Positions 5,062-11,200 of a DNA stretch of 11,994 bases are shown one piece after another. Position 1 is the first letter of the stretch. Each line of letters begins with the position of its first letter. The position numbers were made by a program, and so were the translations under genes. The DNA comes from Candidatus Micrarchaeota archaeon (GTDB lineage: Archaea; Micrarchaeota; Micrarchaeia; Anstonellales; Anstonellaceae), in assembly GCA_013331805.1 (NCBI GenBank), contig DUFS01000034.1, positions 1 to 11,994 of the forward strand, written 5' to 3'. The notes below the pieces were generated by a model. That model searched no databases. It worked only from the letters and a program-made list of their open reading frames with translations, and had not been told where the DNA came from.

Positions 5062-8000
5062 ATGGACCCCAAAAATAGCCCGAAGGCTGACGAATACACT
5101 GCTGCATCCATACAGGTACTGGAAGGGCTGGACGCGGTTCGGAAAAGGCCTGCAATGTACATAGGGGATACCGGCGAGCGGGGATTGCACCACCTGATTT
5201 ACGAGGTGGTGGACAATTCGATTGACGAGGCTTTGGCCGGCTTTGCGAAAAATATCGAGGTTTCCATCGGGGACGGAAGCGTGGTCTCCGTTTCCGACGA
5301 CGGCAGGGGCATACCGGTCGAGACGCACGAGGAGACAAAGAAGTCCGCTCTCGAAGTCGTCATGACCATCTTGCATGCCGGGGGGAAATTCGACAACAAG
5401 ACCTACAAGGTCTCGGGTGGATTGCACGGTGTCGGAGTTTCTGTTGTCAACGCGCTTTCAGAATGGATGGAAGTGGACGTCAAGCGCAAGGGCAGGCATT
5501 ACCGGCAGAGGTATGAGCGTGGCAAGGCAGCCACGCCTGTACGCGAGCTTGGGCCTGCGGAAGGAAGCGGGACCACGGTGCGCTTCAAGCCTGACAAGGA
5601 AATATTCCCGGAAATCAGATTCGAGTTCGAAATCGTGGCCAACAGGATGCGCGAGCTTGCCTACCTGAACAGGGGCCTGAGAATATTGATTAAGGACGAG
5701 CTTTCTGGCGAAACAGAGGAGCACAGGTACGAGGGCGGATTGGAGTCGTTCGTGGGGCACATAAACAAGAACAAGGCGCCCATCGCCAGGATAATCCATT
5801 TCGAAAAAACAGAAGGCGAGGTGACAGTCGAGCTTGCCATGCAGTACAATGAGGGCTATGCGGACAACATCTACACTTTTGCGAACAACATCAACACAAT
5901 CGAGGGAGGGTTCCACCTGGTGGGCTTCCGCTCCGCGCTCACGCGGGCGGTGAACGATTATTCCGATTCGCACAACGGCAAGAAGGACAAGGAAGTCAAG
6001 ATTTCCGGCGAGGATCTGAAGGAGGGATTGGCGGCAGTGCTTTCGGTCAAGCTCCCGCGCCCGCAGTTCGAGGGGCAGACCAAGACCAAGCTGGGCAATT
6101 CCGAAATGAAGGGGATAGTGGAGTCCATTGTGGGTGAAAGGCTGCGCACATTCATGGAGGAAAACCCCTCAGAGGCAAGGAAAATAGTGGAAAAGGCGAC
6201 CTCTGCAGCGCACGCAAGGGAGGCTGCGCAAAAGGCCCGCGAGCTTGTGAGAAGAAAGGGTGTGATGGAATCCGGCGTGCTTCCAGGAAAGCTTGCCGAC
6301 TGCTCCGAGGAGGACCCTGCCAAGTCCGAAATATACGTTGTGGAGGGAGATTCGGCAGGCGGCTGTTTTTCAGGAGATACAAAAGTTGCACTTGTTGATG
6401 GCAGAAACCTCAGCTTCAGGGAGCTTGCGGAGGAAGACAAGTTGGGCGGGAAGAATTATTGCTATACCATAAAGGAAGATGGAAGCATATGTGTGGAGCT
6501 GATAAAGAACCCAAGAATGACCAGGAAAGATGCTGAAGTCGTAAAGGTTGTGCTTGACAGCGGGGAGGAGATTGTCTGCACCCCCGACCATCTTTTCATG
6601 CTCAGAGACGGAAGTTTCGTAAAAGCAGAGCAACTGACTTCAAAATTATCCATCATGCCGCTTTACAGGAAGCTTTCGGAAAAGAAGGGGCGGATAACCA
6701 TCAAAGGCTATGAGATGGTTCTTGATCCAGCAATATCAAAATGGATATTTACCCATATTCTTTCAGATAAATTCAACATCGAGCACGCAAAATATCTGCC
6801 AGCGGCAGGCGCATATAAGCACCATATTGACTTCAACAAGCTAAACAATAACCCCGACAATTTATTGCGGATGAGCAAGGAAGCGCATTTTGCGCTGCAT
6901 TCATCTATGGCAGAGAAAGTGCTTCTGAGCGATGATGTAAAACAAAAAGCAAGGGAAGCGCACATGACACCGGGATATAGGGAAAAAATGAGCAAGCGTA
7001 TGTCCGAACCAACCATGAAAAATATGCTGAGCGCAAGGGCACAGAAGCAGTGGGAAGACGGTGAATACAAGAAATACATGACGGAACGATGGGAAAAATT
7101 CTACAAGGAAAATGAGGAATACCGCCAGGCTAACAATGAGCTCCTCAGGAAGATAAATGATGAATATTGGTCTGATGCAGAAAACCGGAAAATGCAATCT
7201 GGAAGGGTGAGGAAACATTATGAAAACCACCCGGAAGCAAAGGAACTCCTGAAAGAGGTTGCAAAGAAGCAATGGGATAGCCCGGAACTTCTGGCTTGGA
7301 GACGCGCCCAGACCGGCAAACAGTGGACGCCTGATTTCAGGAAGAAGAGGAAAGAAGCTTACAACAAGACTTATTATGCGCATAGCATGGCATGCATGAA
7401 GAAAGTGCTTGAAGAATATGGCAGCCTTGAGGAATACGATGCTGAGAGAATAAAGACGAATGGCAAGAGCCTTCTTCGGAAGAAAACAGTTGTAGATAGG
7501 TTCTTCCACGGAAACGAGAAGGGACTACTCGAAGCAGTAAATAATTACAACCACAAGGTGAAAGAAATAGTGCGCCTCACTGAAAAAATGGATGTGTATG
7601 ACCTTGAAGTGGAAGGCACGCACAATTTTGCGCTTGCAGCCGGAGTGTTCGTGCATAATTCTGCAAAGCAGGGCAGGGACCGCAAGTACCAGGCTATCTT
7701 GCCGCTAAGGGGCAAGATACTCAACGTGGAAAAGGCGCAGATAGTGAAAATCCTGAACAACGAGGGCATACGCACCCTGATTTCTGCGCTTGGCACTGGC
7801 TTTGGCGAGGACTTTGACATTTCAAAAGCAAGGTACCACAAGATCGTGATAATGACCGATGCCGACGTGGACGGCGCACACATCAGGACGCTTTTGCTCA
7901 CGCTCTTCTTCAGGTACCTGCGCCCGCTGGTGGACAGGGGGATGATTTACATTGCGCAGCCGCCGCTTTACAAGCTCAAGAAGGGCAAGAACGAGAAGTA

Positions 8001-8292: not shown

Positions 8293-11200
8293 ATGGCCCA
8301 CGAACAGAAGGAAACCGAATACCGCCACGGCAAGCTGCTGCCGCGAGTGATTGAGAAGGAGATGAAGGCATCCTACCTCGACTACGCGATGAGCGTGATC
8401 GTGGGCAGGGCGCTTCCAGACGCGCGGGACGGGCTGAAGCCGGTCCACCGCAGGATAATGCACGCGATGTACGAGCTTTCGAACACCCACGACAAGCCCT
8501 ACAAGAAGTCCGCGAGGGTGGTGGGGGAAACCCTGGGCAAATACCACCCGCACGGCGACCTTGCAATTTACGACTCGATGGTGAGGATGGCGCAGGGCTT
8601 CTCCATGCGCTACCCGATCATTGACGGGCAGGGCAATTTCGGATGCTTTACCAAGGACACTAAGGTGATACTGACAGACGGACGGAACCTCAGCTTTGGG
8701 GAACTGGTCAAAGAAAACGCAGAAGGAAAACTGAACTATATTTTTACCATGGACAAGGAAGGAAAAGTACGAATCGAGAGGATAATGCACCCGAGACTGA
8801 CTATCAAAAATGCTGAGATAATGAAGGTAATTCTTGACAATGGGAATGAAATACGCTGCACACTAAACCACAGGTTCATGCTACGCGATGGCGAATATAA
8901 GGAAGCTCGGCATCTGAAGCACGGAGACTCACTTATGCCTTTGTATACGAGAATATCGACAAGGGAAGACGATCCTAACATTGAAGGATACACGATGGTG
9001 TTCCAGCCTGAAGATGAGGCATGGGACTACGCCCATCACTTAGCAGATGAATGGAACCTCCGATGCCTCATCTATCCAAGGTCAGCTGGCAGGACGAGGC
9101 ATCATGCAGATTTCAACAAGCTGAATAACAACCCAGACAACATAAAGAGAATGCATTGGAAAGAGCACTGGCAGTTGCACTACAGCCTAACTTCGCAACG
9201 GCACAGAGAAGATGAAGATTATCGGGCAAGCCTAGCCAAAGGAAGAGAAGAATTCTGGGGAAACCAGGAAAACAGGAAGAAGCATTCTGAGCGAACCAGT
9301 GCAAGAAACAGGAGAAACTGGAAAGCGCCTGATTATAGGGCGAAGATGAGAAGAAATCTCAGTTCTTCCAACAAAGAGTACATTGCAGCGCACCCGGAAA
9401 AAAGGCAGGAGTTTAGCGAAAGAGCCACGAGGACATTGAAAAGACTGTGGCAGAATCCACTCTATCGGTCTGCGATGCACCAGAGAATCATCAAAGGAAA
9501 CAAGAATCACGTTACTAACATTACAGGAAAAACAAAATTCCTCAAAATATGCAAGGCAGTTGTGTCTGAAGGCAATATTTTGTCTGAAGAAACATATGGG
9601 GAAAATAGAAACCGGATCTATCGTTATGGCCACGCCACCACCTGGAACAGGGGACTGCAAAAATATTTTGCAAATGACCCAAACCTTATCCTATTGGGAT
9701 TGAATCGGAACCACAAGGTCGCAAGGATAGAAATGCTGGGTGAAAAAGAGGATGTTTATGACTTGACTGTCGAAGGAACCCATAATTTTGCCCTGGCAGC
9801 GGGCGTATTTGTCCACAACTCTGTGGACGGCGACAATGCGGCTGCCATGAGGTACACCGAAGTGCGCCTGAACCGGTTCGCCGAGGAAATGCTCTTGGAC
9901 ATAGAGAAGGAAACTGTGGATTTTGCCCCGAACTTCGACGCCACGCTCAAGGAGCCCGTCGTGCTGCCGTCGCGCGTTCCGAACCTGCTTGTAAACGGCT
10001 CGTCTGGAATCGCAGTTGGCATGGCTACCAACATGCCGCCCCACAACCTCGGGGAAACGGTGGATGCGCTGGTGGCGATGATTGACCGGCCCGAAATCAA
10101 CCTTGAAACGTTGCTTTCGATTGTGCACGGGCCTGACTTTCCAACAGGCGGATTCATAGTGGGCAGGCGGGGCATTGCCGAGGCATACGCAAGCGGAAGA
10201 GGATCGCTCCGCGTAAGGGGCAAGGCGGAAATAGTCACGGGCGGCAAGGAAAAGAAGGCAGAGATCGTGGTGAGCGAGCTTCCCTACCAGGTGAACAAGG
10301 CTGAATGGGTAAAAAGCGTGGCAGAGCTTGCGCGCGACAAGAAAATTGAGGGCATATCCGACATTTCCGACCGGTCTGACCGGGATGGCATGCACGTGCT
10401 GATCCAGCTGAGGAAGGATGCAAACCCAGATGTCGTCCTGAACCAGCTTTACGCGCACACCGCCCTGGAAGGCAGCTTCGGGGTGATCAACCTCGCGCTG
10501 GTGAAAAACGAACCCCGCGTGCTTCCGCTTGCGGATTTGCTGCGTGAATTCCTGCTCCACAGGAAGGAAGTGGTGAAAAGAAGGAGTGCCTTTGAGCTTT
10601 CGGTTGCCAAGGAAAGGAAGCACATCGTGGAAGGGCTGCTTGTAGCTCTTGGGAAGATAGACGATGTCGTGAAGGCGATAAAGGCTGCGAAGAATGCGCA
10701 GCACGCGCGCGAAGTCCTGATGATGGGCTATGCATTGTCGCAGAAGCAGGCGGACGCAATACTTGAGATGAAGCTTTCGAAGCTGACCGCTCTTGAGACC
10801 GGCAAGCTCCACGAGGAGGACATCGAGCTTGGGAAAACCATCAAATACCTTGCCGAAGTGCTTGCCGATGAGAAGAAGATATTCGGCATCATCAGAAGCG
10901 AGCTATTGGAAGTCAAGCAGAAGTACTCTGACAAGAGGCGCACGGTGATCATCGAGGATGACGGGGAAGTGGAGCTGGAGGACCTGATTGCCGAGGAGGA
11001 AGTGGCGGTAATAATCACAAAGGACGATTACATCAAGCGCGTGCCAATGAGCGAGTACAAGTCGCAGAAGAGGGGCGGCAAGGGGGTCATAGGGAGCGAA
11101 ACCAAGGAGGAGGACACCATTAAGGACGTGCTCCTGGCCTCCACGCACGACTACCTGCTCTTTTTCACAGACAGGGGGGATGTGCACTGGCTCAAGGTGC

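What the first reader, a model, noticed from the sequence alone, without database searches (positions are those of the whole stretch)
6364..9819. Paralogous inteins in adjacent gyrB and gyrA: evidence of intein movement to a new, non-homologous site
Counted by hand: 16 of the first 21 residues are identical ([21 protein letters not shown] vs [21 protein letters not shown]) and 22 of the last 23. The HNH cores are near-identical ([14 protein letters not shown]) and begin at the same offset, 152 codons after Cys1. Both junctions are G|S with a TCT codon at +1. However, 13 of the last 17 codons differ at synonymous positions, so this is an old duplication under purifying selection, not a recent copy or assembly artefact. 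Established: inteins normally spread by homing, and alleles at different sites are usually very divergent. Inference: one intein seeded the other about 1 kb away in the same operon, a rare view of intein transposition.
Basis: partly seen in the sequence, partly recalled or inferred. Interest (0 to 1): 0.75.

Follow-up and report, generated by a model that had tools for sequence, protein, structure and literature searches.

The report
Related HNH inteins in gyrB, gyrA
Two self-splicing protein inserts in neighbouring gyrase genes are real and truly related, but they split long ago and belong to a large, widely spread family, so they are not a fresh local copy.

Summary
gyrB carries a 432-aa intein (6364-7659) and gyrA a 392-aa intein (8644-9819). 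Both have the form C1...HN|S with an in-frame HNH motif at offset 152, and they are homologous over their full length (35% identity, E 6e-77).

Each intein belongs to its own large same-site family in DPANN archaea and CPR bacteria. Same-site identity is about 55-57%; GyrA-site versus GyrB-site identity is about 40%. The window's own pair (39.6%) is no closer than pairs taken from different genomes (38.9 vs 38.8%). So no local duplication or gene conversion happened in this genome.

The conserved ends are family-wide splicing blocks. The shared TCT codon at +1 is coincidence.

In a careful tree with 36 inteins from other sites, the GyrA and GyrB clades fall in one subclade (93/95). That subclade also holds an intein at a second GyrB site and one in a family-A DNA polymerase. 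GyrA does not nest inside GyrB.

The wider HNH-intein family occupies dozens of sites, mostly in T4-like portal proteins. An ancient move between sites is supported. A 1-kb hop within this operon is not shown.

The parts
5053..6363 (+). gyrB N-extein (ATPase and transducer domains), ending ...EGDSAGG. The true start is probably the ATG at 5062.
   Evidence: HATPase_c, DNA_gyraseB. It is 80% identical to the Micrarchaeota locus L003. The database twin P0004 is 1068 aa.
6364..7659 (+). [quoted passage not shown]
   Evidence: 119 of 121 GyrB proteins examined carry a complete intein at this same site. It is 85% identical to the GyrB intein of L003.
6820..6861 (+). HNH core motif [14 protein letters not shown] of the GyrB intein (intein residues 153-166).
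   Evidence: The motif was found in 115 of 127 unique GyrB-site inteins, most often at offset 152.
7660..8268 (+). gyrB C-extein (Toprim and GyrB C-terminal domain), beginning SAKQGRDR.
8284..8643 (+). gyrA N-extein, ending ...DGQGNFG. The true start is probably the ATG at 8293.
8644..9819 (+). GyrA-site intein, 392 aa, with the same architecture as the GyrB-site intein. It is inserted 12 codons upstream of the catalytic-Tyr site (AAMRY|T).
   Evidence: 121 of 121 GyrA proteins examined carry a complete intein at this site. It is 76% identical to L001. The AlphaFold model has pLDDT 87.5.
9100..9141 (+). HNH core motif [14 protein letters not shown] of the GyrA intein (intein residues 153-166).
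   Evidence: H153, H154, N161, N162, N166, H175 and H179 are invariant in the 45-sequence alignment A2.
9820..11994 (+). gyrA C-extein (rest of the DNA_topoisoIV domain and the beta-propeller), beginning [14 protein letters not shown]. It runs off the window end.

Best explanation
The window comes from a Micrarchaeota-like DPANN archaeon. Its adjacent gyrB and gyrA genes each carry one class-1 intein with an in-frame HNH homing endonuclease.

Inferred mechanism. Each precursor is translated whole. The Hint domain then excises the intein and joins the exteins (Cys1 attack, Ser+1 trans-esterification, cyclisation of the terminal Asn). At the DNA level, the HNH nuclease, guided by the helical region behind it, cuts the intein-less allele of its own site. 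Repair then copies the intein in (homing).

Evolutionary reading. The two inteins are not copies made in this genome. Each belongs to a separate, old, same-site (allelic) lineage that is spread across DPANN archaea and CPR bacteria. Each lineage is gained, lost and decayed independently of the other. The two lineages share an ancestor within a topoisomerase-rich subclade of a very large HNH-intein family that has colonised dozens of sites, mainly in phage-type genes. So at least one ancient move between non-homologous sites separates them. Which site came first, whether the move was direct, and whether gene adjacency played any part all remain unresolved.
For: Shown by tool results:
- Anatomy and homology.
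- Catalytic residues: in alignment A2 (37 GyrA-site and 8 GyrB-site inteins), C1, T73, H76, H391 and N392 are invariant, as are the HNH residues H153, H154, N161, N162, N166, H175 and H179.
- Structure: the AlphaFold model has pLDDT 87.5. It shows Hint strands at 1-129 and 357-391, a beta-beta-alpha unit at 151-189, and helices at 191-354. The best Foldseek PDB matches are intein Hint domains.
- Purifying selection on both parts of both inteins: window vs L003 gives dN/dS of 0.10-0.15, like the exteins at 0.10-0.16.
- Allelic lineages: 3243 and 4330 hits. All 120 listed hits in each search are GyrB or GyrA respectively, at 54-100% identity, and they share the same junctions.
- Identity bands: GyrA-GyrA median 55.2%, GyrB-GyrB 57.2%, GyrA-GyrB 39.6% (range 32.7-47.1). 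The window pair is 39.6%.
- No local affinity: within-genome pairs in 8 genomes average 38.9%; 56 between-genome pairs average 38.8% (sd 1.8).
- Family-wide end motifs.
- Uncoupled presence: among 80 GyrA-intein loci the gyrB site is readable in 37. Of those, 21 are empty, 8 hold a full intein, 6 hold a mini-intein of 141-161 aa, and 2 are cut by a contig end.
- Signs of mobility: the inteins are lower in GC than their flanks (0.447 and 0.479 vs about 0.55). The GyrA intein is 76% identical to L001 while the extein is 61%. The GyrB intein has dS 0.61 vs L003 while the flanking exteins have 1.41 and 0.86.
- Wider family: 4871 representatives at E<=1e-3 and 783 at E<=1e-30. There are 121 full-length other-site inteins in 87 proteins. 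Of 26 hosts scanned, 11 are T4-like portal proteins, 2 are family-A DNA polymerases, 1 is a class II RNR, and 2 are GyrB-family proteins.
- Subclade: the careful IQ-TREE tree (62 rows, 415 columns) has a clade with support 93/95. It holds 13 GyrA-site and 13 GyrB-site inteins plus P0271_113 (GyrB ATPase-loop site) and P0285_864 (PolA). GyrB is monophyletic at 100/98, and 12 of the 13 GyrA rows group at 97/91. Comparable clades come from the splicing columns only (87) and from the endonuclease columns only (80).
- First 180 residues: the GyrA intein is a median 47% identical to GyrB-site inteins and 34% to 207 other-site inteins.
Against: - Support for the joint subclade is moderate (80-95 depending on data set and method), and its extra members change between trees. 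The first tree placed a huge-phage intein beside GyrB. The splicing-only tree pulls in P0305/P0378 and a phage dCTP-deaminase intein, and drops P0326.
- Only the 150 best of 4871 representatives could be seen. These are ranked by summed score, which favours multi-intein proteins. Closer relatives at other sites may have been missed.
- The AU test was not finished.
- Pfam HNH_3 is below its cut-off in the GyrB intein and is not reported for the GyrA intein.
- Splicing and nuclease activity are inferred only.
- dS values above 1 are near saturation, so the dN/dS ratios are rough.
- Cross-domain transfer evidence is weak: 6 domain changes on the intein tree vs 3 on the extein tree, and MAG labels may be wrong.
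Confidence: 0.8

Rival explanations
1. One reading: in this lineage, one intein seeded the other about 1 kb away in the same operon.
For: The two genes are adjacent and both inteins are present. The inteins are homologous over their whole length.
Against: - Each intein is much closer to same-site inteins of distant organisms (54-100%) than to its neighbour (39.6%).
- Within-genome pairs equal between-genome pairs.
- Both clades are spread over DPANN and CPR.
- The nearest relatives, L001 and L002, have the GyrA intein but no GyrB intein.
- dS between the two inteins is saturated.
Confidence: 0.03
2. One ancient, direct hop between the gyrB and gyrA sites occurred in an ancestral genome or phage where the genes were adjacent. 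Each daughter lineage then spread by homing.
For: - GyrA and GyrB inteins share a subclade in four trees.
- A third topoisomerase-site intein (P0271_113, in the GyrB ATPase loop) is the closest other-site relative over the first 180 residues (47%) and falls in the same subclade.
- gyrB lies next to gyrA in many of the loci.
Against: - GyrA does not nest in GyrB, nor the reverse.
- A PolA-site intein (P0285_864) also sits inside the subclade, and the order of branching is unresolved.
- The two target sites share no more DNA than chance gives.
- Adjacency is absent in 38 of the 80 loci, mostly CPR bacteria.
- No direction can be inferred without a root.
Confidence: 0.3
3. Independent colonisation: each gyrase site was invaded separately from a pool of related HNH inteins carried mainly by phages, with no direct GyrA-GyrB step.
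For: - The family is dominated by phage-type hosts: 11 of 26 scanned are T4-like portal proteins and 2 are PolA.
- It includes inteins in named phages (SP-15, an Aphanizomenon phage, RcKickapoo).
- It occupies up to 78 flank clusters, so taking new sites is routine for this family.
- Other-site inteins sit inside the gyrase subclade.
Against: GyrA-site and GyrB-site inteins are on average clearly closer to each other (median 46-47% over 180 aa) than to the 207-213 other-site inteins (median 34-36%). The joint subclade has 93/95 support.
Confidence: 0.35
4. The likeness comes from a shared HNH cassette that invaded two unrelated mini-inteins, or from convergence of the splicing blocks.
For: The most similar stretches are the known splicing blocks and the HNH core.
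Against: The splicing-only and endonuclease-only partitions each place GyrA and GyrB inteins in one subclade. Identity runs through the whole length: 86 of the first 180 residues and 31 of the last 40. The HNH motif starts at the same offset in both.
Confidence: 0.03
5. Assembly artefact: the two inteins were brought together by a chimeric contig.
For: The only identical public contig (L005) is itself a mosaic.
Against: The window's gene order (CNNM, gyrB, gyrA) is shared with Micrarchaeota loci L003 and L002. L003 is an independent assembly and has both inteins, at 85% and 72% identity. Seven further loci also have both full-length inteins.
Confidence: 0.02

Closest known systems
GyrB inteins at the EGDSAGG|S site. 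The tested example is Bernardetia sp. Wsw4-3y2 gyrB (NZ_CP147018.1). The classic example is the Synechocystis PCC6803 'Ssp GyrB' intein.
   Same: Same host protein and same junction ([11 protein letters not shown]...[11 protein letters not shown]), about the same length (430 aa), and 48.8% identity to the window's GyrB intein. The Bernardetia intein falls inside the GyrB clade. A natural Ssp GyrB intein is mentioned in PMC3443213 (passages read).
   Different: Here the host is a DPANN archaeon. That Ssp GyrB carries an HNH domain and sits at this same site is my recollection (Dalgaard et al. 1997, not held). Its sequence was in none of the collections I searched, so it was not compared.
Classical GyrA inteins at the catalytic-Tyr site (AMRY|T), such as the Mycobacterium GyrA inteins.
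   Same: Same host protein. An intein at that classical site occurs as a second intein, 12 codons after the HNH intein, in L019.
   Different: The window's GyrA intein sits at QGNFG|S, not at RY|T. It carries an HNH nuclease, whereas the second intein in L019 has LAGLIDADG-type motifs. That mycobacterial GyrA inteins use the Tyr|Thr site is recalled, not tested.
Published cases of related non-allelic inteins: Cre RPB2 with ThrRS inteins, Cst/Sas RPB2 with Ceu ClpP (PMC1635734), and Anaeramoeba inteins that spread within a protein and between non-homologous proteins (PMC10710043). Passages of both papers were read.
   Same: Inteins at non-homologous sites group together in trees. Ectopic movement is inferred, and there is no clear likeness between the flanking DNA.
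   Different: Those cases are eukaryotic and mostly involve LAGLIDADG or mini inteins. Here the elements are prokaryotic or phage HNH inteins, and the family spans dozens of sites.
In-frame HNH inteins of phages (noted as rare and non-canonical in bioRxiv 10.1101/2025.01.02.630785; passages read).
   Same: Same architecture (Hint, HNH, helical region, Hint). Full-length homology at 23-29% (tblastn; 25-32% in the joint alignment) to inteins in the Aphanizomenon phage dCTP deaminase, a Bacillus phage SP-15 protein, and a Streptococcus phage.
   Different: Cellular gyrase hosts, and much closer mutual similarity within the gyrase subclade.

Membership tests
Class 1 intein (Hint-domain protein-splicing element) | Cys/Ser at position 1, a TxxH block B, penultimate His plus terminal Asn, and a Ser/Thr/Cys at +1. 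| tested here: met
   Both inteins have C1, T73-x-x-H76 (CTPDH and CTLNH), a ...VHN end, and Ser at +1.
Class 1 intein (Hint-domain protein-splicing element) | Hint fold. | tested here: met
   Pfam Intein_splicing scores 72.2 and 82.2 bits against a cut-off of 35.8. The AlphaFold model has pLDDT 87.5, and its top Foldseek PDB hits are intein Hint domains at E 7e-07 to 1e-05.
Class 1 intein (Hint-domain protein-splicing element) | Actual protein splicing. | not testable with these tools
   Needs expression of the precursor.
Intein with an in-frame HNH homing endonuclease | An HNH (beta-beta-alpha metal) motif between the splicing blocks. | tested here: met
   The motif [14 protein letters not shown]...H...H starts at offset 152 in both. 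Its His and Asn residues are invariant in 45 sequences. The model predicts a beta-beta-alpha unit at 151-189. Caveat: Pfam HNH_3 scores only 20.1 bits (cut-off 24.8) in the GyrB intein and is not reported for the GyrA intein, although relatives score up to 102 bits.
Intein with an in-frame HNH homing endonuclease | Site-specific cleavage of the intein-less allele (homing). | not testable with these tools
   Only indirect signs are available: empty, full and mini-intein alleles among close relatives, and inteins more alike than their exteins.
GyrB-site allelic lineage (EGDSAGG|S) | Same insertion point, and grouping with other inteins at that point. | tested here: met
   119 of 121 GyrB proteins show a complete intein at xSAGG|S; the other two are truncated. 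The clade has support 100/98.
GyrA-site allelic lineage (QGNFG|S) | Same insertion point, and grouping with other inteins at that point. | tested here: met
   121 of 121 GyrA proteins and all 80 genome loci have the intein at this point. 12 of the 13 sampled rows form a clade at 97/91; P0300 is unresolved.
Recent intragenomic paralogues (local duplicate or gene-converted pair) | The within-genome pair is closer than pairs taken from different genomes. | tested here: not met
   38.9% within genomes vs 38.8% between. The window pair (39.6%) equals the median of 26,260 GyrA-GyrB pairs.
Classical GyrA intein (catalytic Tyr|Thr site) | Insertion directly after the active-site Tyr. | tested here: not met
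   The window's intein lies 12 codons upstream, followed by [12 protein letters not shown]. The classical site is uninterrupted in the window.

The most novel reading that the evidence does not exclude
This HNH-intein lineage may be unusually good at taking new insertion sites. If so, the gyrase subclade records repeated hops among three sites of type IIA topoisomerase genes (GyrB ATPase loop, GyrB Toprim EGDSAGG|S, GyrA QGNFG|S) and a family-A DNA polymerase. These hops may have gone through phage-borne genes that shuttle the inteins between CPR bacteria and DPANN archaea. That would make ectopic intein transposition, usually regarded as nearly unobservable, open to study in a single family with hundreds of dated events.
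Probability: 0.3. Interest if true: 0.65.

Novelty: new member of a known kind. Interest (0 to 1): 0.4.

Why it matters
Inteins are thought to move almost only to their own empty site. Moves to new sites are inferred rarely, and mostly in eukaryotes (PMC1635734, PMC10710043; passages read).

This window does not show such a move in progress. It did lead to a large HNH-intein family that sits at dozens of sites and includes a subclade spanning three topoisomerase sites. That family would be good material for asking how inteins acquire new targets, for example by testing whether the GyrB-site nuclease can cut the gyrA site.

For annotation, the practical points are:
- DPANN and CPR gyrase genes often hold one to three inteins.
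- The two HNH inteins are gained and lost independently.
- Conserved gyrase regions can seed chimeric contigs (L005).

I found no paper that describes the QGNFG|S GyrA intein or its kinship to GyrB inteins. The library lacks most subscription journals and the InBase registry.

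Tried and rejected
- PDB by sequence: only weak matches to DnaE and NrdJ mini-inteins (best E 1.1e-05). No solved HNH intein was found.
- ESM Atlas with gyrase families skipped: the nearest clusters were short intein or HNH fragments (0.89-0.91), then dCTP-deaminase (0.77) and RtcB (0.75) inteins. 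These are leads only.
- Plasmid collection: one hit, a GyrB-site intein in Bernardetia.
- The first tree used only six phage outgroups. All were very long branches (3.5-5 changes per column), so it was replaced by the representative-based trees.
- The AU test of a GyrA+GyrB clade did not finish in 288 s and was dropped in favour of a bootstrapped tree.
As a result, the sources, names and contigs of P0271, P0285 and the portal-type hosts are unknown. Calling them phage proteins rests on Pfam domains alone.
- The third homologous-protein search was not used.
- The genome scan kept only the best 80 of 490 confirmed stretches, all at the GyrA site. It gave no other-site loci and no gyrA allele without the intein.
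- Dalgaard et al. 1997 could not be opened.
- Target-site likeness was considered and rejected.
- Gene conversion of the C-terminal block was considered and rejected: 13 of 17 identical codons differ synonymously, and the same VEG/VDG residues occur in L001-L003.

Full report
**What is in the window.** All genes lie on the + strand.
- A 5'-open class II ribonucleotide reductase occupies 1-2901.
- A CNNM/CBS membrane protein occupies 3259-4281.
- Two small ORFs occupy 4354-4908.
- gyrB occupies 5053-8268.
- gyrA runs from 8284 to the window end.

gyrB is interrupted at 6364-7659 by a 432-aa insert between EGDSAGG and SAKQGRDR. gyrA is interrupted at 8644-9819 by a 392-aa insert between GQGNFG and [12 protein letters not shown]. 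Both inserts start with Cys, end with His-Asn and are followed by Ser. Both pass the Pfam Intein_splicing cut-off.

- BLASTP of the two inserts gives 35% identity (156/444), E 6e-77, from first to last residue.
- 16 of the first 21 residues and 22 of the last 23 are identical.
- The HNH motif starts at offset 152 in both.
- 13 of the last 17 identically encoded codons differ synonymously.
- TCT is the +1 codon in both.

**What the elements are.** The following are invariant in an alignment of 37 GyrA-site and 8 GyrB-site inteins:
- the splicing residues C1, T73-x-x-H76, H391 and N392;
- the HNH residues H153, H154, N161, N162, N166, H175 and H179.

An AlphaFold model of the GyrA intein has pLDDT 87.5 and pTM 0.66. 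It shows a Hint domain built from residues 1-129 and 357-391, a beta-beta-alpha unit at 151-189, and a run of long helices at 191-354. Its best PDB matches are intein Hint domains, and no solved HNH intein turned up.

Against the closest relative that has both inteins (L003), dN/dS is 0.10-0.15 for the splicing and endonuclease parts of both inteins. The exteins give 0.10-0.16. So both parts are kept by selection. I infer working class-1 inteins with working HNH homing nucleases; neither activity can be tested here.

**Each intein has its own same-site lineage.** I searched the large protein set with each intein region.
- The GyrB intein gave 3243 hits. The 120 listed are all GyrB, at 54-100% identity.
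- The GyrA intein gave 4330 hits. The 120 listed are all GyrA, at 54-100% identity.

119 of 121 GyrB proteins and 121 of 121 GyrA proteins (the window's own included) have a complete intein at exactly the same junction. The two exceptions are truncated proteins. The named hosts are DPANN archaea (Micrarchaeota/Burarchaeum, Woese-, Pace- and Nanoarchaeota) and CPR/Patescibacteria.

A scan of one genome per species found 490 confirmed stretches. The best 80 were kept, and all are GyrA-site inteins.

In one joint alignment of 338 inteins:

| Comparison | Median identity |
|---|---|
| GyrA-site vs GyrA-site | 55.2% |
| GyrB-site vs GyrB-site | 57.2% |
| GyrA-site vs GyrB-site | 39.6% (range 32.7-47.1) |
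| GyrA-site vs six phage outgroups | 29.3% |
| GyrB-site vs six phage outgroups | 27.6% |

The window's own pair is 39.6%, exactly the median.

**No local event.**
- In 8 genomes with both full-length inteins, the within-genome pair averages 38.9%. The 56 between-genome pairs average 38.8% (sd 1.8).
- The striking end motifs are family consensus. For GyrA the consensus ends are [21 protein letters not shown] and [23 protein letters not shown]. For GyrB they are [21 protein letters not shown] and [23 protein letters not shown].
- The two target sites share 14 of 36 nt. Random in-frame extein pairs average 10.4 (sd 2.8), and 13.6% of them reach 14.
- At consensus level only 9 of 36 nt agree, and the usual gyrB +1 codon is AGT.

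**The two inteins come and go independently.** Of the 80 GyrA-intein loci:

| State of the gyrB site | Loci |
|---|---|
| No gyrB within 10 kb | 38 |
| Site not covered | 5 |
| Site readable, empty | 21 |
| Site readable, full-length intein (419-432 aa) | 8 |
| Site readable, mini-intein (141-161 aa, nuclease lost) | 6 |
| Site readable, intein cut by a contig end | 2 |

- One of the eight full-length cases, L005, is the near-twin of the window.
- The closest relatives, L001 and L002, have the GyrA intein only. L003 has both.

There are also signs of exchange between lineages.
- The GyrA intein is 76% identical to L001 while the extein is 61%.
- The GyrB intein has dS 0.61 against L003 while its flanks have 1.41 and 0.86.
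- The inteins have lower GC than their flanks.
- Bacterial and archaeal labels need 6 changes on the intein tree and 3 on the extein tree. This is weak evidence, and MAG labels may be wrong.

**The wider family.** An exhaustive HMMER search of 1.84 billion representatives with the GyrA intein found 4871 proteins at E<=1e-3 and 783 at E<=1e-30.

Among the 150 best, 146 hold 308 intein starts: 17 at the GyrA site, 11 at the GyrB site, and 280 elsewhere. 121 full-length other-site inteins lie in 87 proteins, at 78 flank clusters. That number is an upper bound on the number of sites.

Pfam on 26 of these hosts gave:
- T4-like portal protein in 11, with 2-5 intein stretches each;
- family-A DNA polymerase in 2;
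- class II RNR in 1;
- an AAA ATPase in 1;
- GyrB-family proteins in 2;
- GyrA in 1;
- intein and HNH domains only in 8.

Named phages carry distant members of the family.

**Are the GyrA and GyrB inteins special to each other?** Partly.

A careful IQ-TREE run (LG+C20+F+G4 PMSF, 62 rows, 415 columns) gives a clade with ultrafast bootstrap 93 and SH-aLRT 95. It holds all 13 GyrA-site rows, all 13 GyrB-site rows, and two others:
- P0271_113, an intein in the ATPase loop (KIR|CGLNGVG) of a GyrB-family protein;
- P0285_864, in a family-A polymerase.

GyrB is monophyletic (100/98). 12 of the 13 GyrA rows group at 97/91. The two outsiders sit beside GyrB with weak support (92/65).

Other trees agree in outline:
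- a 182-row FastTree run groups GyrA and GyrB with support 81, inside a wider clade at 96;
- a quick tree gives 86;
- the splicing columns alone give 87, with partly different extra members;
- the endonuclease columns alone give 80.

Over the first 180 residues, the GyrA intein is a median 47% identical to GyrB-site inteins and 34% to 207 other-site inteins. The best other-site match is P0271_113, at 47%.

So the two lineages share an ancestor within a topoisomerase-rich subclade, and the whole element moved as a unit. GyrA does not nest in GyrB. Direction, directness and any role of adjacency remain open.

**Comparison with what is known.**
- GyrA and GyrB are listed as intein hosts (PMC4760082, passages).
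- A natural Synechocystis GyrB intein is used in protein engineering (PMC3443213, passages). That it is an HNH intein is my recollection of Dalgaard et al. 1997, which I could not open.
- Ectopic movement is considered very rare, but it has been inferred from related non-allelic inteins (PMC1635734) and in Anaeramoeba (PMC10710043); I read passages of both.
- In-frame HNH inteins are described as non-canonical and phage-associated (bioRxiv 10.1101/2025.01.02.630785, passages).
- My searches found no paper on the QGNFG|S GyrA intein, on inteins in CPR or DPANN gyrases, or on kinship between GyrA and GyrB inteins.

**Verdict.** It is an ordinary pair of known-type elements and not a caught-in-the-act transposition.

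Noticed in passing
L005 (contig DNRQ01000188.1) against window 5110-11994: The only identical public contig is binned as Geobacter. It matches the window base for base from about 6100 to 11994, apart from a patch at 8400-8600 (24 mismatches and 10 gap positions). It is only about 67% identical over 5110-6100. Upstream it carries bacterial dnaA, dnaN and recF instead of the window's genes. This looks like a chimeric contig joined inside conserved gyrB. The window's own gene order (CNNM, gyrB, gyrA) matches Micrarchaeota loci L003 and L002.
   Followed up: partly
L019:11183-12580; also L056, L067, L077, and proteins P0259, P0128, P0145, P0188: Some gyrA genes hold a second intein only 12 codons after the HNH intein, at the catalytic-Tyr site (AAYRY|C...SHN|TEARL), with LAGLIDADG-type motifs. 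This was translated for L019 only. For the other loci it is inferred from a gap of about 1.35 kb, and for the proteins from LAGLIDADG Pfam domains and the P0259 sequence.
   Followed up: partly
L014, L041, L049, L054, L061, L078 (gyrB site): Six loci have GyrB mini-inteins of 141-161 aa that keep both splicing ends but have lost the HNH and helical region. This is what the gain, decay and loss cycle of homing elements predicts.
   Followed up: partly
P0246-P0393 (representative proteins): T4-like portal proteins of 1237-2599 aa carry 2-5 Intein_splicing stretches of this HNH family (for example P0260 with 5). Other hits show up to 9 matched stretches (P0252, P0263). That is an unusually high intein load for one protein.
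   Followed up: partly
P0271 (1562 aa) and P0326 (1460 aa): These GyrB-family proteins have two to three inteins at different sites. P0271 has one in the ATPase loop (FKIR|CGLNGVG) and one just before EGDSAAG. L041, L033 and L070 also show extra insertions in the gyrB C-terminal part.
   Followed up: partly
window 4354-4908: Two small adjacent ORFs (93 and 90 aa) lie between the CNNM gene and gyrB. The second has a weak YhaV-toxin-like Pfam match (E 1.7e-4, below cut-off). Relatives of these ORFs were found in L039 and L014; no match turned up in L003, the syntenic locus. This may be a toxin-antitoxin pair.
   Followed up: no
window 6001-7500 and 8501-10000: GC falls to 0.447-0.492 over the two inteins, against 0.53-0.56 in the flanking gyrase exteins.
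   Followed up: no
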